Sequence record: OR896822.1
Length of the DNA: 64,000 nt
Origin: Salmonella phage vB_SenS-3
Reading direction: 5' to 3' (one strand)
The position numbers and the translations under genes were made by a program. Shown here one piece after another: positions 2,761-10,347 of the stretch (its first letter is position 1; the number at the start of each line of letters is the position of its first letter). The notes beneath the pieces were generated by a model, which had not been told where the DNA came from, ran no database searches, and was given only the letters and a program-made list of their open reading frames with translations.

Positions 2761-3651
2761 TTATACCAAATCTTTGAGCGATTCGGCAACTAAAATTTCA
2801 ATACGTTGAGCCAACATATCGATCTCTTCTTTATTTAAATCACCTGGGTCTTTGCCTTCTGGAAGAAGGAAGTTACCAACTATAGGTGTTAAACGTGTTT
2901 TTGTACGAATTAGCTTCGCTAGTGCTTGGGCAGCTTTATTACCAGAGGCATCATTATCTAGCAAGATAACAACTACTCTTACTCCAGCAATAATGTAAGG
3001 ACTAAACTTATCCGCAATGTTATCAGATGTAAACTGATGTGTACCAAAGCAGCAAGAAGCATAATCTACACCATTGTCTTCTAGATTTAACATATCAAAG
3101 ATACCTTCAACTAGAACAAGAACTGGTGTATTATATCGTACAGGGAAAATCGGTGGTGAAACTTGTTTTGGTTTTACTAAGTATTTAGGAGGGGCAGAAC
3201 TGTTTATAGAACGTCCCAGGAATAGGATATTGCGTCCAACAGCATCTGTTATTGGGAATACAATTCTGCCTTCCCAGTCTGCTTGATGTTGGAAAGCAAA
3301 ATATTTCTTCAAGGTCTTAGAACTGATACCTCGGAAATCACCTTCGAAAAGGTAAGCAGATTCAGGAATTGCAAGATTCGTAGATCCATTCCTAATCTCT
3401 GAAATCTTTTTACGTACTTGTGACAATCTTGGGGACTGTCTGTACTGAGTCTCATTAAAATAATGGTAAATGCTCGGTATTCCTCTACCGAAGCCACAGC
3501 TCAAGCAATGCATAATACCTGATTCAGGATCAATACGCAAGCTTGGGTGTTTATCATCATGATCTGGATTGAGACAACAGATGAGGATGTCCCCACCTGT
3601 GTCTTTGTATTCAATGCCTTTCAGATCAAGTAGTTCTGTTATTCTACTCAT
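2761..3651 (-). CDS. DNA primase (DnaG-like, zinc finger + TOPRIM)
   Basis: 296 aa; CxxC zinc-binding region (HCLSCGFGRG); TOPRIM motifs LVEGIFD and VVVILLDNDASG. Confidence 0.8.
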   Translation of the reverse strand: MSRITELLDLKGIEYKDTGGDILICCLNPDHDDKHPSLRIDPESGIMHCLSCGFGRGIPSIYHYFNETQYRQSPRLSQVRKKISEIRNGSTNLAIPESAYLFEGDFRGISSKTLKKYFAFQHQADWEGRIVFPITDAVGRNILFLGRSINSSAPPKYLVKPKQVSPPIFPVRYNTPVLVLVEGIFDMLNLEDNGVDYASCCFGTHQFTSDNIADKFSPYIIAGVRVVVILLDNDASGNKAAQALAKLIRTKTRLTPIVGNFLLPEGKDPGDLNKEEIDMLAQRIEILVAESLKDLV

Positions 3652-5120
3652 ATATCGCTGGCCTGTTCACCTGTTGAATTTTCAGCTTTGTCTTTCTTAG
3701 CACGTTTAGGTTGAGCTGGTTTATCCTTTTCAATAGGAATAACGAACTCAGCTTCCATTTGCGCAATATCTTCCATTGCTAGGTTGGTAGTGTTATCCAT
3801 TCGCAGAGTTTCCCAGTTCATCTTAGGCATAAACTTCACACTATCAGAGGAACGAGTCTTAACGAAGTCAAACATAATAGCACCTTGACCATTATCAGCT
3901 TTTGCAGCATTAAGATTAGCAGCCATATCTGCGGAATCAAGAATCCCTTTAGACATACGCGTTCTACCATCTTGGTCAATCTGATAAGGAGCAACACCAG
4001 CCACGTTATGTTTCTGGCAGATAGATTTGAAAGACGAACTAACAACCATCTGTTCTTTCCAGTCATACATGTCAATGGTCTTTGAATCTGGAAGTCTTGT
4101 TTGGTTAATATAGTCTAGAAGAGCTACAGTAACCTTATCACCATACTTAGCAACTAGTTTATTTAATTCTACGTCAACCGTCGTAATAGACAGTTCAGGA
4201 TCGTAAACGATGATCATAGGAGTGTGAAGTTCATAGCTTTCAAGGAGTTTACTTTCCATATCATAGAAGTCACTCATTTTAGCCATAGTGTACTGCTTAA
4301 CGAAACTATCGAAAAGCTCTTCACCACCATTAAACATTCTAGCCCTAGTTCTGGCTAATCTCAACAGAGCAGCACCTTCAAGAGTGTTATTACGCATTGC
4401 TAATGCAGATACTCCAGCTAACATAGCCAGATTACGTCTAAACACTTCGTGCTCTTTCATCTCAATTGAGAAATATGGAGCAATGTCTCCATTCAAATAT
4501 TGCTGAACCTGTATGTTTGAACAGATAATGGATTTACCAGTACCACGCCAACCACCAAGCAGTAACGTTTCTGTGCGAGCTAAACCAATTTGAGCGTCGA
4601 ACTCATTACAAATACCAAGAGCGATCAAGTTCAGTTTGGTATCTTCTTCTCTCTGGAAAATACGCATTGTGTCCGCGTTGAATACCTTTCCAGTATTCGT
4701 TACTTTCTCTTCTAATTTTAAGTGAAGGGAGGCAACTCGATTGAGAATTTCTCCCTGATCCAGCATTGTTAAATCTTGAAGCACGTCTGTTTCTAGAAGT
4801 TTCAGGAATAGATCCTGTGTATATTCAGCTTCTAGGACTTCAAGTGCCTGTTCCATGCTCACTTCTGGAATTTGAGTGTTAGCTAAGACGACAAGAGCTT
4901 GAGAAAGGCGGGCGTTCCTATTGGCCTCAAGCATCAGTGCGTCAATGGACGGCATTGCGTTATATTTCTTATAATAATTCTGGACGGCTTGGTAAATTGA
5001 GGAGAAAGCGTCATTAAAATGATCTTTATGCAGTTTTGAGAATGTTTCCAATGCTATTTGCTTCTGTTCAGAAGCGAGAAGCATCTTCAACACTACAGCT
5101 TGCACGTTAAACAAGGTCAT
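3648..5120 (-). CDS. replicative DNA helicase (DnaB-like)
   Basis: Walker A GGWRGTGKS; overlaps primase start by 4 nt; ATG at 5120 preceded by AAGGAG chosen over upstream ATG at 5171, which sits inside a terminator hairpin. Confidence 0.8.
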   Translation of the reverse strand: MTLFNVQAVVLKMLLASEQKQIALETFSKLHKDHFNDAFSSIYQAVQNYYKKYNAMPSIDALMLEANRNARLSQALVVLANTQIPEVSMEQALEVLEAEYTQDLFLKLLETDVLQDLTMLDQGEILNRVASLHLKLEEKVTNTGKVFNADTMRIFQREEDTKLNLIALGICNEFDAQIGLARTETLLLGGWRGTGKSIICSNIQVQQYLNGDIAPYFSIEMKEHEVFRRNLAMLAGVSALAMRNNTLEGAALLRLARTRARMFNGGEELFDSFVKQYTMAKMSDFYDMESKLLESYELHTPMIIVYDPELSITTVDVELNKLVAKYGDKVTVALLDYINQTRLPDSKTIDMYDWKEQMVVSSSFKSICQKHNVAGVAPYQIDQDGRTRMSKGILDSADMAANLNAAKADNGQGAIMFDFVKTRSSDSVKFMPKMNWETLRMDNTTNLAMEDIAQMEAEFVIPIEKDKPAQPKRAKKDKAENSTGEQASDI

Positions 5121-5155
5121 TCTCCTTTGCACGCTTTCGTGCCTTCTAAATGCAA

Positions 5156-5186
5156 AAAGGGGAAGGAGCATAGCCCCCTCCCCTTA
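5156..5186 (-). terminator. putative terminator between 5203..5970 gene and helicase gene
   Basis: AAGGGGA/TCCCCTT inverted repeat followed on minus strand by TTTTTGC. Confidence 0.4.
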
Positions 5187-5202
5187 GGTTTAATTTACCA
5201 GA

Positions 5203-5970
5203 TTATTCAGCAGCCGCAGCTTTTGCATCCAGTTTAGCACGCTTAGCGGCACCATCATAGTCCTTAGCAACCAGACCACGACGAGACAGCATAGATTTAA
5301 CACCGCGCTCAGACTTACCAGTTTTCTCAGCGATCTCAGCAACAGTCATGTTAGCCAGATCCAGACCTTCTAACAGATCTTCACGAGTTTTAGCACTTGA
5401 AGTTTCCTGTACCGGCATAGCAGCGATACGACCTTCACGAAGCAGGCTCAGAGCTTTACCACGGATCTGCTTAATATTGCGACCGAAGTGAGCAGCGATA
5501 GCTTCAATAGTAGCACCAGCAACAACCTGATTAACGAAATCAGTTTCTTCGTCAGGAGTGAAGGAACGAACAGCAGCAGTTTTTTCAGTTGGCTTAACAG
5601 AAGCAGTCATTTCCAGACTCAGGATCTTACCCTGTACCTGCTTAGCACCGAACTGACCACCAGCTACAGCAGCAGCGATTTCAGCGTAAGTATACTGACC
5701 AGCATGAGCGTTCAGGAAATCAACCAGTTCAGCTTCCTGTTCAGGAGTCCACGGGGATTTCTGTACTTCGTTAGCTTTCTGTACTTCGAAACCTTCTTTA
5801 CGCAGCTTAGAGCCAACAGAGCGAGCGGTAACGTCTTTACCAGTCTCGGTAGCCAGTTCAGCAGCGATAGCAGCTACTTGTTCTTGAGAGATTACAGCAA
5901 CACCCAGAGCAGTGGCTTTTGCTTTCAGAGACTCGGTTACACCTTCTACGTTCCAGTTCAGTTTAGACAT
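5203..5970 (-). CDS. putative DNA-binding protein with four tandem HTH-like repeats
   Basis: 255 aa, Ala-rich; four repeats of the pattern xEIAxxxGxxxxxxxGKxLSL; RBS present. Confidence 0.6.
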   Translation of the reverse strand: MSKLNWNVEGVTESLKAKATALGVAVISQEQVAAIAAELATETGKDVTARSVGSKLRKEGFEVQKANEVQKSPWTPEQEAELVDFLNAHAGQYTYAEIAAAVAGGQFGAKQVQGKILSLEMTASVKPTEKTAAVRSFTPDEETDFVNQVVAGATIEAIAAHFGRNIKQIRGKALSLLREGRIAAMPVQETSSAKTREDLLEGLDLANMTVAEIAEKTGKSERGVKSMLSRRGLVAKDYDGAAKRAKLDAKAAAAE

Positions 5971-6745
5971 TATTATTTTTCTCCAATAGTTCTTTAATCG
6001 ACAGGATTTCTATCCCATTCGTTTCGGCTTTCTTATAAGATGAGGAAGAACGTTTTGATTCATCCTCACAGATTAGGTATTTGACGTCTTTGGTAACGGA
6101 CTTCTTGACCGTATATCCTAGACTTTCTAAATAGTTTGTTGCATCCGTTCGATTTGCAAAATCTTGCAAAGATCCGGTAATACAGATCGTGATTCCATTT
6201 GGCTGGGCAACTAAATCATCCGTAATGATGATATCAGCTTTAGTACCTCGAATACCAGTTGAGAATTTCCATGGTAATTCAATAACATCCTTGCCTTGTG
6301 GGGAATTTAGCCAGGTTTTGTAATTTTCTCCAGCCTTGCCGTCAGCCTTCACATCGTGGAAGCTAGTGCAATTTTGGGACAGTTTCTTTGCTGCAACCTC
6401 TCCAATAAGAGGAATTCCTAAAGAACCGAGAACCGAACCAAAGTCAATGTCTCCGCGAACCTTAGTATTTAACTCGCTAATCAACTTAGCGGCAACCTTG
6501 CTACCAACAGCTCCGACCAAATCTTCTTCGGTCAGGTAAAACAGTTCTGAGATCTTAGTCAGTTCCAGCTTCTCAATAGTTTTCGGGCCAAAGCCCTTTA
6601 ACTTCATTTTTGTGCAGAAGTTCTCGATTAACTTACTTGATTGCGCTGGACAGTTGGACTTATTCCTACAGAATAATTGCCCGTTGACAAGATCTAGCTT
6701 AGAACCACAAGAGGGACATTGTGTTGGAATTTCGATTTTCATCAA
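5963..6745 (-). CDS. ligB: NAD-dependent DNA ligase, C-terminal part (Zn finger, HhH, BRCT)
   Basis: 260 aa; C4 zinc finger CPSCGSKLDLVNGQLFCRNKSNCPAQ; HhH-like GFGPKTIEKL; C-terminal BRCT-like region. Confidence 0.8.
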   Translation of the reverse strand: MMKIEIPTQCPSCGSKLDLVNGQLFCRNKSNCPAQSSKLIENFCTKMKLKGFGPKTIEKLELTKISELFYLTEEDLVGAVGSKVAAKLISELNTKVRGDIDFGSVLGSLGIPLIGEVAAKKLSQNCTSFHDVKADGKAGENYKTWLNSPQGKDVIELPWKFSTGIRGTKADIIITDDLVAQPNGITICITGSLQDFANRTDATNYLESLGYTVKKSVTKDVKYLICEDESKRSSSSYKKAETNGIEILSIKELLEKNNNV

Positions 6746-6771: not shown

Positions 6772-6800
6772 TATTATAGCAAGTATTTAAGCATTTAGCA
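6772..6800 (-). promoter_or_regulatory. sigma70-type promoter in the ligA-ligB gap
   Basis: minus-strand -35 TTGCTA, 17 bp spacer, -10 TATAAT, then conserved leader ATTTATATAAATTGATAAGG. Confidence 0.6.
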
Positions 6801-6944
6801 ACTACAATTTTAACTAACTTTGCTTACCCTCGCCATAACTTTCTATCCCTCAACTGAATGATAATAGTATATACCTAAGCGGCGAAAATGTCAATAACCA
6901 CTTTATAATTCCGACATGGTAAACGGGTAGCAAAGGGTTACGAA

Positions 6945-7919
6945 TTAGTCGTATACTCGCTCTACTATACAAGGGATTACACCACCAGCACGAATCACTC
7001 GAATCTGGCAACCGATCTCTAAATCGAGAGCGTTAATATAATCAACGTTATTAAGAGTTGCTTTAACGATTGTGGCATCATCAATAATCACCGGCTCGAA
7101 ATAACCAACTGGAGTTACTTTACCAGAAGCCCCTACTTGCCATTCAACTTTAACAAGTGTGGTAATTTCGCCTTCTTCATCCTCTTTAATAGCAAATGCA
7201 CCGCGAGGAAATTTATTAGTCCAACCTTCACGGAAGAATTTGTTGTTATCATTAATACGAACAACTTTACCATCCGTCGGAATCCACTTAAAGAAGGAAC
7301 GAACATTAACAACTGTCAAGAAGTTCTCATTCTCTAGCCAAAGCATATCTTTTAAATAGGCTTCTGTAATACCGACTGTTTCCGCTGAACACTGGATACC
7401 ATATGCAACGAAGATTAAACCACCTTCACCAATACGTTGCATGAAATCATCACTATCTTTCAGGTTAATAGCACCAGAAGCATAGTTACGTTTGTTCTCT
7501 ACTTCTTTAGTAATGAGAACTTCACCAGTGATTTGAGTTGGTACTTTTTGGGAAATAGTTTTGGGGATGTTCAGCATTTTAACATTATGCGTTACATCAT
7601 TCCCTAGAATACCGTTACCACGAGTTAACGCTTGAACAAACTCACCATTAATATATAATAGAGAAATCGCACAACCATCTAACTTATCAGTTTCAACCTG
7701 ACCAAGTGGGTTGAATGGAGCTTTATCACCACGATCGTAATAGACTTTCTGCAAAGAATACATACGATACAAATGAGGGATATCACCTTTCGGTCCGATT
7801 TCTTCCTCTAGTGGGAATCTTTTAATCAGACGATCATATTCTTCATCGGAAATAAGACTCATTCCCTGGTAGTACGCTTCTTGACAACGTTTAATAAAGT
7901 CTTTTACATTATTCATCAT
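6945..7919 (-). CDS. ligA: NAD-dependent DNA ligase, N-terminal part (adenylation + OB domain)
   Basis: 324 aa; adenylation motif KLDG (TDKLDGCAISLLY); separate ORF from the Zn-finger/BRCT part. Confidence 0.85.
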   Translation of the reverse strand: MMNNVKDFIKRCQEAYYQGMSLISDEEYDRLIKRFPLEEEIGPKGDIPHLYRMYSLQKVYYDRGDKAPFNPLGQVETDKLDGCAISLLYINGEFVQALTRGNGILGNDVTHNVKMLNIPKTISQKVPTQITGEVLITKEVENKRNYASGAINLKDSDDFMQRIGEGGLIFVAYGIQCSAETVGITEAYLKDMLWLENENFLTVVNVRSFFKWIPTDGKVVRINDNNKFFREGWTNKFPRGAFAIKEDEEGEITTLVKVEWQVGASGKVTPVGYFEPVIIDDATIVKATLNNVDYINALDLEIGCQIRVIRAGGVIPCIVERVYD

Positions 7920-8138: not shown

Positions 8139-8167
8139 ATTATATATGAAAACTGAGTCGAAAGCAA
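8139..8167 (-). promoter_or_regulatory. sigma70-type promoter
   Basis: minus-strand -35 TTGCTT, 17 bp, -10 TATAAT plus conserved ATATTTATATAAATTGATGAG leader. Confidence 0.6.
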
Positions 8168-8194
8168 GTACATTTATAAAGAAAAAGCCAAGAA

Positions 8195-8503
8195 CTAGGC
8201 ATTCTTGGCTTTGAGTTCTTCAGCTCGTTTCTGTACTTCATGCAAGACCTCGGATTCACTGAGGATTTGCGTAAAAGCGTAGAATAGCTGTGACGTAGTT
8301 TCTAGGGTATAAGGAAAAGAGAAGCCGGATTTCGTTGGAAACCACTCTCCAGTAATATCTTGGAGCCAGTAACGAATTCCCATGTATAGATTCCCACGAA
8401 ATTCAGATACGGTTAGTCTTACTTGTTCTCCCTCCTTCTCCCAAAGCATGATGGACTGGTCGTCAACGTGTCCTTCATAGTTTTGATTTACCTGATCGCT
8501 CAT
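8195..8503 (-). CDS. hypothetical protein
   Basis: 102 aa ORF, coding-like composition, co-oriented with neighbours. Confidence 0.55.
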   Translation of the reverse strand: MSDQVNQNYEGHVDDQSIMLWEKEGEQVRLTVSEFRGNLYMGIRYWLQDITGEWFPTKSGFSFPYTLETTSQLFYAFTQILSESEVLHEVQKRAEELKAKNA

Positions 8504-8519
8504 TTACATATCCCAAATA

Positions 8520-8886: not shown

Positions 8887-9297
8887 TTACTTAGTGATAG
8901 CTCGGATAGCTTCTGCCAGATGAGCAGCTGCTTTACCGGTCAGCTTGTCGATGATTGCGTAGTCCAGGAAGTCCGGGGCTAAGCCAGCATCAGAGAATGC
9001 AGAGCGAAGATCGGAGTGAGCCTGAGCTTTGGAAGTACGAGAACCACCAGAAGCTTTTTCTCCAGTAGATGCGCTTGATTTAGAAGTAGAGCCAGCAGCT
9101 TTCTTGATATACAGACCTGCTTTGGTCAGCTTCATACGAAAACCGTTCGGAGTTACACCATTTTCCTGAGCAATTTCGCTAACAATTTCCATGCTAACGC
9201 CCGGACGCTCATCCTCTGGGAATTGCTCCATACGAGCAACGTAGTCGGAAGACATTTTTTCGAACAGTTCATCAGTCCACTGAGTTGGAGTAGTCAT
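8887..9297 (-). CDS. hypothetical protein
   Basis: 136 aa ORF downstream of minus-strand promoter at 9356..9384. Confidence 0.55.
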   Translation of the reverse strand: MTTPTQWTDELFEKMSSDYVARMEQFPEDERPGVSMEIVSEIAQENGVTPNGFRMKLTKAGLYIKKAAGSTSKSSASTGEKASGGSRTSKAQAHSDLRSAFSDAGLAPDFLDYAIIDKLTGKAAAHLAEAIRAITK

Positions 9298-9404: not shown

Positions 9405-9650
9405 CTACACATCTAGTTCAACGATCTCCCAATCGTCAGCCAGGGCTTCGTCTAGGGAGAGTTCTACCTCTTGCTTATACGCTCGCTTTACATCCTCAGC
9501 CGTATCGTTAGGTAATGGCACAAACCTTTTAACAGTATCGGCATCAACGTTAAACTCGAAAAGCATAGTAAATGTTTTACTATTTTCCCAGCAATCTCGC
9601 TGGAGATATTTTACGTCTCCAGCTTTTAACAGATCAGTTAGTTTACTCAC
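9405..9650 (-). CDS. hypothetical protein
   Basis: 81 aa acidic ORF; overlaps upstream gene end by 8 nt. Confidence 0.55.
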   Translation of the reverse strand: MSKLTDLLKAGDVKYLQRDCWENSKTFTMLFEFNVDADTVKRFVPLPNDTAEDVKRAYKQEVELSLDEALADDWEIVELDV

Positions 9651-10347
9651 GGCGTTTTCCTTTCTCTTTATCGAGTTTTAGGGCAGCTTTAACAGCTTCA
9701 TTAACCAACGTGATAACTTCTTCACGACTCCATTTAAAGCCCAGAGCCTTAACATCAACTCCCAGCTTTTCCAGATGTTTAACAGAGGCTAATTCGTAGT
9801 GCATATAGTGAACGTTCTGTTGTTTACCTTCTGATAACAACCAAACACGATAGCAACCAACTGGATTAGTCATTGCTTTCTTGATTTCACCAATACACTG
9901 ATAGCCAGGAACCCAAACAAGTTCACCAACTTCAAATTCTTCTGCCATCGCATCATCAGGAATCAGCGGTGGATTCAATGGATCAACAATATCGTTTAAA
10001 CGAAGCAAAGCACCATAACGTTCCAGAACAGATTTAATCATCGCTACAGAACGATAATTACGATCTGCGATTTCTTCAAAAGAATCACCAGAAAGATACT
10101 GTTCAATTACGTTTGCAAGCTCAACACCTTCAATCAGTGTTCCACGCTTCTTCTTTTTCATTTCCGCAACCTGAACCTGACGATCTCTCCATTCTTCAAT
10201 CATTCGTTCCATAGTTGGGTTAGAAGAAACACCGAGCATTTCACATGCTGCTTTCTTAGTACCACCATTCTCTAGATGTTCAATAACCTTTTTAAAGGTT
10301 TCATCAGGGATTTCATGGATAAGTTTCTTTCTACGAGAACCAGCCAT
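9643..10347 (-). CDS. hypothetical protein with N-terminal HTH-like segment
   Basis: 234 aa; N-terminal TKKAACEMLGVSSNPTMERMIEEW resembles a helix-turn-helix. Confidence 0.6.
   Translation of the reverse strand: MAGSRRKKLIHEIPDETFKKVIEHLENGGTKKAACEMLGVSSNPTMERMIEEWRDRQVQVAEMKKKKRGTLIEGVELANVIEQYLSGDSFEEIADRNYRSVAMIKSVLERYGALLRLNDIVDPLNPPLIPDDAMAEEFEVGELVWVPGYQCIGEIKKAMTNPVGCYRVWLLSEGKQQNVHYMHYELASVKHLEKLGVDVKALGFKWSREEVITLVNEAVKAALKLDKEKGKRRE

What the first reader, a model, noticed from the sequence alone, without database searches (positions are those of the whole stretch)
5203..5970. Protein built from four tandem HTH-like repeats
The 255 aa Ala-rich protein contains four about 40-residue repeats of the pattern xEIAxxxGxxxxxxxGKxLSL, reminiscent of sigma-70 region 4 or Sigma70_r4-like helix-turn-helix units. 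Its position between helicase and ligase suggests a replication- or late-transcription-associated DNA-binding protein with multivalent DNA contacts.
Basis: seen in the sequence. Interest (0 to 1): 0.45.

Follow-up and report, generated by a model that had tools for sequence, protein, structure and literature searches.

The report
Phage T5 D5 DNA-binding protein
This gene encodes the long-known D5 DNA-binding protein of T5-like phages.

Summary
The ORF at 5203-5970 (minus strand, 255 aa, 17% Ala) is real. It is 98% identical (251/255) to bacteriophage T5 D5 (YP_006946.1), annotated as a DNA-binding protein required for DNA replication and late transcription. The window is a T5-like Salmonella phage, 100% identical over this stretch to phage S147 and others.

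The four-repeat observation holds:
- Units lie at residues about 2-66, 70-128, 133-187 and 189-243.
- All six unit-versus-unit profile comparisons beat every column-shuffled control. Units 2 and 3 are clearly duplicated (E 3e-9).
- The period is 55-68 residues, not about 40.
- Unit 4 has lost a confident first helix.

An AlphaFold2 model (pLDDT 91.7) shows three clean three-helix HTH domains, a degenerate fourth, and a C-terminal helix. The recognition helix is the best-conserved element of every unit.

Most likely mechanism: an abundant monomer that lays four HTH modules along duplex DNA. The protein is already known. The four-module, GcrA/Myb-like anatomy is a modest refinement.

The parts
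5203..5970 (-). D5 gene (255 aa plus stop), orthologue of T5 D5 / T5.118
   Evidence: ORF list. PHROG 323 'transcriptional regulator, D5-like', E 3.3e-71, residues 1-253. 251/255 identical to T5 YP_006946.1. 100% nucleotide identity to Salmonella phages S147, vB_SenS-3 and others, annotated 'D5 protein'.
5773..5967 (-). Unit 1 (residues 2-66): W6 anchor; helices 11-22, 29-43, 49-58; small beta bridges at 26-27 and 62-63; recognition helix with invariant R50, K55, R57
   Evidence: Model secondary structure. hhalign vs the GcrA N-terminal family E 4.8e-6, z 9.2. Conservation table.
5587..5763 (-). Unit 2 (residues 70-128): W74 anchor; helices 76-88, 95-101, 109-118; invariant T94, E97, Q113, G114, K115, L117
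   Evidence: U2-U3 hhalign E 3e-9. The isolated-unit model has pLDDT 87.6 with three helices. Subthreshold Pfam Myb hit at 71-100.
5410..5574 (-). Unit 3 (residues 133-187): invariant R135 arm; F/Y137 anchor; helices 139-150, 155-162, 166-178; invariant G171, K172
   Evidence: hhalign vs the GcrA family E 8.8e-7, z 16.9. Pfam HTH_23 at 151-184, subthreshold.
5242..5406 (-). Unit 4 (residues 189-243): degenerate. No aromatic anchor and helix 1 not confidently predicted. HTH helices 210-217 and 221-231, with invariant G223, L228, R230, R231
   Evidence: Pfam Sigma70_r4_2 29.1 bits (cut-off 25.7) on 204-230. hhalign U3-U4 E 4e-5 and U1-U4 2.6e-4.
5209..5253 (-). C-terminal amphipathic helix (residues 240-254), preceded by the conserved DYDG motif. 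Role unknown; possibly a protein-protein or cooperativity element (inference).
   Evidence: Helix 240-254 in the model. D237, G240 and K246 are conserved in at least 90% of 34 homologues.
5963..6745 (-). NAD-dependent DNA ligase subunit B. Its stop overlaps the D5 ATG by 8 nt, suggesting a co-transcribed and probably translationally coupled unit.
   Evidence: The same overlap occurs in marine relatives (L003 genes 5238-6014 and 6001-6726).
6773..6894 (-). Two strong sigma-70 promoter-like sites upstream of ligB-D5. They match T5 early promoters P-K28b and P-K28a by position and sequence.
   Evidence: Consensus scan gives 11/12 and 10/12 matches. The spacer is 98% identical to the T5 region annotated with promoters P-K 28b/28a.
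5157..5185 (-). GC-rich hairpin (13 bp stem) with a U-run, directly after the D5 stop. It is terminator-like and also encloses the predicted helicase start codon.
   Evidence: Terminator scan. RNA fold -25.6 kcal/mol, z -2.66.

Best explanation
The ORF is the D5 protein of a T5-like (Demerecviridae) Salmonella phage. It is an abundant early protein that binds duplex DNA and is needed for phage DNA replication, early-gene shut-off and late transcription.

Anatomy. A single 27 kDa chain strings four three-helix HTH modules on short, partly conserved linkers and ends in a C-terminal helix. Units 2 and 3 arose by internal duplication. Units 1 and 4 are more distant copies of the same module type.

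Proposed mechanism.
- Shown elsewhere for T5 D5: it binds DNA, it is a monomer, it is toxic when expressed in E. coli, and it remodels a retron complex that carries msDNA.
- Inferred here: each module places its conserved third helix in a major groove, using mainly backbone contacts (a Thr/Ser N-cap and an invariant Lys). One monomer would then occupy several successive grooves, and many monomers would coat the phage DNA stoichiometrically.
- Inferred consequence: coating excludes RNA polymerase from early promoters and limits polymerase access at nicks, so templates are channelled to replication and late expression.
For: Identity:
- PHROG 323, E 3.3e-71.
- 98% identity to T5 D5, whose record note reads 'DNA-binding protein; required for DNA replication and late transcription; also is involved in shutoff...'.
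- The order ligA-ligB-D5-DnaB-primase-PolA is conserved in T5, Sepoy and 53%-identical marine contigs.
- 900 of 902 phage records with a match cover at least 80% of the protein. All records listed are genomes of about 104-128 kb (one is a 4 kb fragment).

Architecture:
- Model pLDDT 91.7, with helices arranged 3+3+3+2 plus a tail.
- Inter-unit profile scores exceed all shuffles.
- Pooled-unit profile vs GcrA N-terminal profile: E 3e-9, 96% probability, z 16.

All four units look functional. The third helix is the most conserved element of each unit (0.87, 0.86, 0.71, 0.78, against 0.48-0.61 for the first helices). The equivalent of GcrA's backbone-contacting K39 is invariant in units 1-3, and the T32 equivalent is Thr/Ser in most homologues of each unit.

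Abundance: codon use is extreme (Ala 39/44 GCT, Leu 17/19 CTG), unlike the neighbouring genes. The gene sits behind two strong early promoters.

From the bioRxiv preprint 10.64898/2026.07.11.737809 on T5 D5:
- D5 runs at 26 kDa in mass photometry.
- It is toxic when expressed alone.
- It depletes the higher-order retron-Kva2 complex in a concentration-dependent way.
- Escape substitutions G53D, V149I and G232D fall in units 1, 3 and 4. The W74 stop falls at the anchor residue of unit 2.
Against: - Nothing here measures DNA binding. The footprint, cooperativity and lack of sequence specificity are inferred, or rest on 1970s-80s biochemistry that I recall but could not retrieve (PMC353123 is not held).
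- pTM is only 0.49, so the relative placement of the four modules is unknown.
- The protein is nearly neutral overall (pI 6.8, 34 K+R vs 34 D+E), which is unusual for a coating protein.
- Each unit has its own strongly conserved recognition-helix surface. This could instead mean sequence- or structure-specific recognition.
- The D5-msDNA interface in the preprint is an AlphaFold3 prediction, not a solved structure.
Confidence: 0.72

Rival explanations
1. D5 is a sequence-specific late-gene transcription factor or sigma-like co-factor. One or more HTH units read late-promoter DNA, and the protein contacts sigma-70 RNA polymerase, as GcrA or sigma region 4 does.
For: - Several phage records annotate it 'late gene transcription factor' or 'transcription factor D5'.
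- Sigma70_r4_2 scores above its Pfam cut-off on unit 4.
- The closest solved domain belongs to GcrA, a sigma-70 co-factor.
- Recognition helices are conserved in a unit-specific way.
- The T5 early-to-late switch is still unexplained (PMC7472727).
Against: - There is no sigma region 2 or 3. TIGR02937 scores 15 bits against a cut-off of 42.9.
- D5 has no cysteine, so it cannot carry GcrA's CCCH sigma-interacting zinc finger.
- GcrA's base-reading residues R33, N34, H41 and R42 are not retained.
- The RNAP-associated T5 proteins listed in PMC7472727 are 60, 11, 90 and 15 kDa plus gpT5.026, not a protein of about 27-29 kDa.
- Codon bias points to stoichiometric rather than regulatory amounts.
Confidence: 0.15
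2. D5 is chiefly a replisome accessory or structure-specific DNA binder. It would recognise nicks, forks or hairpins in T5's naturally nicked genome, and its transcription phenotypes would be secondary to the replication defect.
For: - The gene is embedded in, and co-transcribed with, the replication module (ligase, helicase, primase, polymerase), also in distant relatives.
- The preprint predicts binding to an msDNA stem-loop and shows remodelling of the retron complex.
- From my own recollection, not retrieved: Fujimura and Roop (1983) reported that gpD5 bound to duplex DNA modulates T5 polymerase at nicks.
Against: - HTH modules of this class typically bind B-form major grooves (GcrA-DBD complex).
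- No domain typical of fork, nick or ssDNA recognition was found.
- The stem-loop interaction is a model only.
Confidence: 0.1
3. The 'repeats' are not products of duplication. They would be four unrelated HTH domains that look alike only because all HTH domains do.
For: - U2-U4 and U1-U2 similarities are weak (E 0.01 and 2.9e-3).
- Different units hit different Pfam HTH families (Sigma70_r4_2, HTH_23, Myb).
- Foldseek on unit 2 alone ranks Myb-type domains, not GcrA, and none is significant.
Against: - U2-U3 has E 3e-9 with 35% identity over 49 columns, and in-register DNA traces remain.
- All six pairs beat all column shuffles in one common register.
- All four units align end to end with the same GcrA template.
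- They share T/S-x-x-E-I-A in helix 2 and a basic residue at position 2 of helix 3.
Confidence: 0.03

Closest known systems
Bacteriophage T5 D5 protein (T5.118, YP_006946.1; PHROG 323)
   Same: 251/255 residues are identical, with the same length and the same position between ligB and the D6 helicase. It is the same protein in a sister phage.
   Different: Four substitutions (A25D, T41A, T131A, A206V relative to T5), none in a recognition helix.
N-terminal DNA-binding domain of Caulobacter crescentus GcrA (PDB 5yiu/5yiv; Pfam PF07750)
   Different: - GcrA has one such domain followed by a linker and a CCCH zinc-finger sigma-70-binding domain. D5 has four domains, no Cys and no such domain.
- GcrA's base-reading residues R33, N34, H41 and R42 are not conserved in D5.
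- Pfam's GcrA model is not among the hits at E up to 10.
- Unit 2 alone looks at least as Myb-like.
Sigma-70 region 4 (Pfam PF08281 / PF04545)
   Same: The HTH core of unit 4 (residues 204-230) scores above the Pfam cut-off for Sigma70_r4_2. 36 of 136 unit sequences match that family at E up to 1.
   Different: - The match covers only 27 of 54 profile positions.
- No other sigma regions are present.
- hhalign of the pooled unit vs E. coli region 4 gives E 4.6e-3, against 4.6e-8 for GcrA.
Tandem Myb/SANT or homeodomain-like repeat proteins (c-Myb R1-R3, Timeless DNA-binding domain, Tc3/Mos1 bipartite domains, POU)
   Different: The Myb signature of three spaced Trp is absent. Pfam Myb scores are subthreshold (17.8 vs 24.4 bits). 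Those proteins are eukaryotic and sequence-specific.
Cbp1, the archaeal CRISPR-repeat-binding protein built of tandem HTH modules (PDB 2lvs; NCBIfam NF040595)
   Different: It is archaeal. By my recollection it has three modules rather than four. No significant sequence match to D5 was found; NF040595 hit only the neighbouring D2 protein, weakly.

Membership tests
T5 D5 protein family (PHROG 323) | Full-length sequence match to the family profile and to the type protein | tested here: met
   PHROG 323 E 3.3e-71 over residues 1-253. 98% identity to T5 YP_006946.1.
T5 D5 protein family (PHROG 323) | Position in the early replication operon, directly after ligB and before the DnaB-like helicase D6 | tested here: met
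   Window ORFs. Same order in T5, Sepoy and marine contigs.
T5 D5 protein family (PHROG 323) | Binds DNA; required for replication, early shut-off and late transcription | not testable with these tools
   Taken from the T5 record note and from the title of McCorquodale 1979 as cited in PMC12630848.
GcrA family (Pfam PF07750) | N-terminal three-helix DNA-binding domain | tested here: met
GcrA family (Pfam PF07750) | C-terminal sigma-70-interacting domain with a CCCH zinc finger | tested here: not met
   D5 contains no cysteine (composition). The feature is defined in PMC5887438.
GcrA family (Pfam PF07750) | Base-reading residues R33, N34, H41, R42 that give the preference for methylated GANTC | tested here: not met
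   Equivalents are A49/R50/R57/K58, A109/K110/L117/S118, I166/K167/L174/S175 and E221/R222/S229/R230.
GcrA family (Pfam PF07750) | Match to the Pfam GcrA model | tested here: not met
   PF07750 is not among 22 families listed at E up to 10 for the whole protein. It is also not among the 25 most frequent families for the 136 unit sequences.
Sigma-70 family (region 4) | Region 4 HTH match above the curated threshold | tested here: met
   PF08281, 29.1 bits vs 25.7, residues 204-230, profile positions 23-49 of 54. This is a partial, HTH-core-only match.
Sigma-70 family (region 4) | Presence of sigma region 2 (and 3); whole-protein sigma model | tested here: not met
   There is no Sigma70_r2 hit. 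Sigma70_r3 is subthreshold on the same HTH. TIGR02937 scores 15 bits vs 42.9.
Myb/SANT domain (Pfam PF00249) | Pfam match above threshold; three regularly spaced aromatic residues | tested here: not met
   17.8 bits vs 24.4 on residues 71-100. Only one Trp per unit. The fold is nonetheless Myb-like: TM about 0.67 to PHR1/PHR2 MYB domains, not significant.
Winged-helix (as proposed in the retron-Kva2 preprint) | Beta-hairpin wing after the recognition helix | tested here: inconclusive
   The model shows only isolated beta bridges at 26-27/62-63 and 233/239, and no clear hairpin. The preprint reports 1.3 Å RMSD to the retron WH protein.

The most novel reading that the evidence does not exclude
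D5 is a covalent array of four GcrA/Myb-type modules that acts as phage-encoded 'chromatin'. By coating or reading the state of T5 DNA (replicated, nicked or otherwise marked), it would itself be the unexplained early-to-late transcription switch of T5-like phages. Its kinship with the sigma-70 co-factor GcrA would reflect a shared origin of phage and alphaproteobacterial regulators. D3, and possibly D2, would carry single or double copies of the same module and work with it.
Probability: 0.1. Interest if true: 0.55.

Novelty: already known. Interest (0 to 1): 0.22.

Why it matters
D5 is one of the classic but mechanistically unresolved T5 proteins. The early-to-late switch in T5 is still described as unknown (PMC7472727). 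D5 has also just been reported as the trigger of a type IX retron (bioRxiv 10.64898/2026.07.11.737809). That preprint speaks of 'a helix-turn-helix motif' and does not contain the words tandem, repeats or GcrA.

Recognising four modules, each with its own conserved recognition helix, gives a concrete map for mutagenesis and footprinting. It also helps interpret the escape mutations, which fall in all four units. For genome annotation, the finding is simply a correct call on a known gene.

Tried and rejected
- Foldseek of the whole model against the PDB gave nothing at E <= 0.001. The domain arrangement is arbitrary (pTM 0.49).
- Foldseek of isolated unit 2 gave no hit better than E 0.77. Myb-type domains ranked first and GcrA was not in the top 50, so the GcrA claim is kept at 'closest solved relative', not membership.
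- HMMER of the family profile and of the pooled-unit profile against PDB sequences gave only weak, mixed HTH hits. Designed coiled coils among them are spurious. GcrA had E 0.074, though over its full length.
- NCBIfam gave nothing meaningful.
- PF26822, listed for some homologues in the precomputed table, did not appear when three of those homologues were scanned against the local Pfam copy, so I could not identify it.
- The DRT4 paper's 'phage-encoded DNA-binding protein' turned out to be T5 ORF55, not D5.
- McCorquodale 1979 (PMC353123) is not held. A phrase search for other D5 biochemistry papers found only one citing paper.
- The search terms 'protein D5' and 'gpD5' mostly returned tumour protein D52 papers.
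- The D2 similarity to units 3+4 seen with hhalign was not confirmed with HMMER (E 0.54).

Full report
**What is there.** The finding's coordinates match an ORF on the minus strand, 5203..5970: 255 aa, ATG start, 44 alanines. Transcription runs from high to low coordinates:
- NAD-ligase subunit A (6945-7919; Pfam DNA_ligase_aden and OB)
- ligase subunit B (5963-6745; BRCT)
- this ORF
- a DnaB-like helicase (3648-5171)
- primase (2761-3651)
- DNA polymerase (131-2698)

**Identity.**
- The stretch 4800-6400 is 100% identical to Salmonella phages S147, vB_SenS-3, vaffelhjerte, gmork and others. 516 phage records match, and the gene is annotated 'D5 protein', 'transcription factor D5' or 'late gene transcription factor'.
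- The protein matches PHROG 323 ('transcriptional regulator, D5-like') end to end, E 3.3e-71.
- It is 251/255 identical to T5 D5 (T5.118, YP_006946.1). That record's note reads 'DNA-binding protein; required for DNA replication and late transcription; also is involved in shutoff of expression...'.
- The classic reference is McCorquodale et al. [quoted passage not shown] I could see it only as a citation in PMC12630848, because the paper itself is not held.
- A tblastn search finds the protein in 902 phage records, 900 of them covering at least 80% of it. Apart from one 4 kb fragment, the listed records are genomes of about 104-128 kb from Salmonella, Escherichia, Klebsiella, Proteus, Vibrio, Aeromonas and Pectobacterium phages.
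- Marine metagenomic relatives at 53% identity keep the order PC4-like, ligA, ligB, D5, DnaB, primase, PolA. They also keep the ligB/D5 overlap.

**Are the repeats real?** Yes.
- On the single sequence, the best off-diagonal local alignment (residues 73-135 vs 137-194) scores 61. 200 shuffles gave mean 34.8 and max 57.
- I aligned 34 homologues that are 50-80% identical to the query, cut the alignment into four segments and compared the profiles.
  - U2-U3: E 3e-9, 96% probability, 49 columns.
  - U3-U4: 4e-5. U1-U4: 2.6e-4. U1-U3: 1.8e-3. U1-U2: 2.9e-3. U2-U4: 0.01.
  - All alignments are in one register.
- Against 48 column-shuffled versions of the partner profile, all six observed scores exceed every shuffle, with z from 3.9 to 19.4.
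- Short in-register DNA similarities remain, for example 30 nt at 73% identity, 63 codons apart.
- A pooled-unit HMM places exactly four non-overlapping, nearly full-length matches on the protein. This is circular, but it shows the tiling.
- The units are residues 2-66, 70-128, 133-187 and 189-243. The period is 55-68 residues, not about 40.
- The written motif fits units 2 and 3 literally, and units 1 and 4 only loosely.

**Structure.** AlphaFold2 with the 34-sequence alignment gives mean pLDDT 91.7. pTM is only 0.49, so the domains are confident but their mutual arrangement is not.

| Unit | Helices |
|---|---|
| 1 | 11-22, 29-43, 49-58 |
| 2 | 76-88, 95-101, 109-118 |
| 3 | 139-150, 155-162, 166-178 |
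| 4 | short 205-207, then 210-217, 221-231 |
| C-terminal tail | 240-254 |

- Units 1-3 are clean three-helix HTH domains. Unit 4 keeps the HTH but has no confident first helix and lacks the aromatic anchor.
- In every unit the third (recognition) helix is the best-conserved element: mean column identity 0.87, 0.86, 0.71 and 0.78, against 0.48-0.61 for the first helices. This argues that all four are used.
- The linkers also carry conserved residues: V125, K126, R135, P186, Q188 and D198.

**What kind of HTH?**
- Pfam gives only one hit above threshold: Sigma70_r4_2 on residues 204-230, 29.1 vs 25.7 bits, covering profile positions 23-49 of 54. There are subthreshold hits of HTH_23 (unit 3), Myb (unit 2) and HTH_33/Tc3 (unit 1).
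- Across the 136 unit sequences the commonest families are Sigma70_r4_2 (36), HTH_23 (28) and Myb (about 20).
The pooled unit matches GcrA at E 4.6e-8. The others score 1.8e-3 (c-Myb R2), 4.6e-3 (sigma-70 region 4), 5.2e-3 (engrailed) and 0.22 (Tc3).
- With a profile of 120 GcrA-family N-termini (low diversity), the pooled unit gives E 3e-9, 96% probability and 44 columns. Individual units give U1 4.8e-6, U3 8.8e-7, U2 3.6e-4 and U4 1e-3. All beat the column shuffles.
- Caveats:
  - HMMER against PDB sequences ranks GcrA only at E 0.074, among other weak HTH hits.
  - Foldseek on an isolated unit-2 model (pLDDT 87.6) gives no significant hit and ranks Myb-type domains first.
  - Unit 2 matches c-Myb R2 about as well as it matches GcrA.
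- I therefore describe the modules as GcrA-DBD/Myb-like three-helix HTH domains, with GcrA as the closest solved relative. D5 is not a GcrA family member.

**Residue-level comparison with GcrA.** PMC5887438 lists the GcrA contacts: bases via R33, N34, I37, G38, H41 and R42; backbone via M1, W3, W15, S20-S22, T32, K39, H41 and R42. Mapping them through the hhalign register shows:
- The structural core is shared: W3 with W6/W74/F137; L11; I24-A25 with the 'IA' of each unit; V36.
- The backbone-contacting K39 is invariant in units 1-3 (K55, K115, K172). The T32 N-cap position is Thr/Ser in most homologues of each unit.
- The GcrA N34 position is basic in most homologues of units 1, 2 and 4 (R50, K110, R222) and in the window's unit 3 (K167, variable among homologues).
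- The residues that give GcrA its methyl-GANTC specificity are not retained.
- D5 has no cysteine, so it cannot carry GcrA's CCCH sigma-70-interacting domain.
- This pattern fits groove binding dominated by backbone contacts. No inference about methylation sensing is justified.

**Expression context.**
- The ligA-ligB spacer is 98% identical to the T5 region annotated with early promoters P-K28b and P-K28a. It contains two strong sigma-70 consensus matches at 6894-6866 and 6801-6773.
- The ligB stop overlaps the D5 ATG by 8 nt.
- D5 codon use is extreme (Ala 39/44 GCT; Leu 17/19 CTG), whereas its neighbours use mixed codons. Its higher G+C (0.475 vs about 0.39) lies in codon positions 1-2, so it reflects amino-acid composition.
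- A 13 bp GC-rich hairpin with a U-run follows the stop: -25.6 kcal/mol, z -2.66.
- Together these point to very high expression, consistent with a stoichiometric DNA-binding role.

**Recent literature.** A July 2026 preprint (bioRxiv 10.64898/2026.07.11.737809) identifies T5 D5 as the trigger of the type IX retron-Kva2.
- D5 is 26 kDa (monomer) in mass photometry.
- It is toxic when expressed alone.
- It depletes the higher-order retron complex in a concentration-dependent manner.
- AlphaFold3 predicts that it binds the msDNA stem-loop through 'a helix-turn-helix motif'.
- The escape phage carried G53D, W74*, V149I and G232D. In my map these fall in units 1, 2, 3 and 4 respectively: the recognition helix of unit 1, the anchor Trp of unit 2, the helix-1 core of unit 3 and the end of the recognition helix of unit 4.
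- The preprint does not contain the words tandem, repeats or GcrA. No paper in the library combines GcrA with T5 terms.
- PMC7472727 states that the mechanism of the T5 transcription class switch remains unknown.

**Mechanism.**
- Most likely (confidence about 0.7 overall; identity about 0.97): an abundant monomer lays four HTH modules along duplex DNA and coats it. This would shut off early promoters and condition the template for replication and late expression.
- Shown, for the T5 orthologue and by others: DNA binding, genetic requirement, monomer state, toxicity and retron remodelling.
- Inferred here: that all four modules contact DNA, the extended footprint and the low sequence specificity.
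- Points against: the near-neutral net charge (pI 6.8), the unit-specific conservation of recognition surfaces and the unknown inter-domain geometry.
- Rivals: a sequence-specific late activator or sigma co-factor (0.15), a structure-specific replisome accessory (0.1), and convergent unrelated HTH domains (0.03).

**Verdict.** The added value is anatomical: four modules, a U2/U3 duplication, a degenerate fourth unit, a conserved C-terminal helix, and GcrA-DBD rather than sigma region 4 as the nearest solved relative. Novelty is 'already known' and interest is low to moderate.

Noticed in passing
window 8887-9297 (-), D3 protein, 136 aa: Residues about 31-68 resemble the HTH core of D5 unit 1 (VSMEIVSEIAQENGVTPNGFRMKLTKAGLYIKKA). 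hhalign vs the D5 family gives E 5.5e-4. The pooled-unit HMM gives E 0.0024 among 611 window ORFs, the only hit besides D5. Its G+C is also raised (0.485). D3 was also mutated in a T5 retron-Kva2 escaper.
   Followed up: partly
window 9643-10347 (-), D2 protein, 234 aa: D2 aligns with D5 units 3+4 over 91 columns (hhalign E 5.4e-5), which suggests two similarly spaced HTH modules. HMMER with the pooled-unit profile does not confirm this (E 0.54). Pfam gives only a subthreshold HTH_28 hit. The T5 record calls it 'helicase', which the sequence does not obviously support.
   Followed up: partly
window 5157-5185 (-): A GC-rich hairpin (13 bp stem) followed by a U-run sits directly after the D5 stop (-25.6 kcal/mol, z -2.66). 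The predicted ATG of the D6 helicase (5171) lies in its loop, and the SD-like AAGGGGAGG lies in its 5' arm. It could attenuate transcription, or limit helicase translation relative to D5. T5's D6 is annotated 5 codons shorter.
   Followed up: partly
window 5203-5970 (-): Codon usage of D5 is strikingly biased (Ala 39/44 GCT, Leu 17/19 CTG) compared with neighbouring replication genes. This is the pattern of very highly expressed genes.
   Followed up: yes
window 8195-8503 (-): This 102-aa ORF carries a PC4-type ssDNA-binding domain (Pfam PC4, 1.5e-8). The same gene precedes ligA in marine relatives.
   Followed up: no
proteins P0020 and P0039: Partial proteins 98-99% identical to this D5 are deposited at NCBI as 'Enterococcus faecalis' hypothetical proteins. 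This probably reflects phage contamination of those assemblies.
   Followed up: no
literature: PMC8624392 (Yersinia phage phiR2-01): The D5 homologue (Gp110) was among the most abundant proteins in purified virion preparations, unlike in T5. Either it is carried over on DNA or it is packaged.
   Followed up: no
L003-L006, genes at about 8144-8509: Marine D5-carrying contigs encode a SET-domain protein (PF00856) between the DnaB helicase and the primase. That position holds an HNH endonuclease in T5.
   Followed up: no
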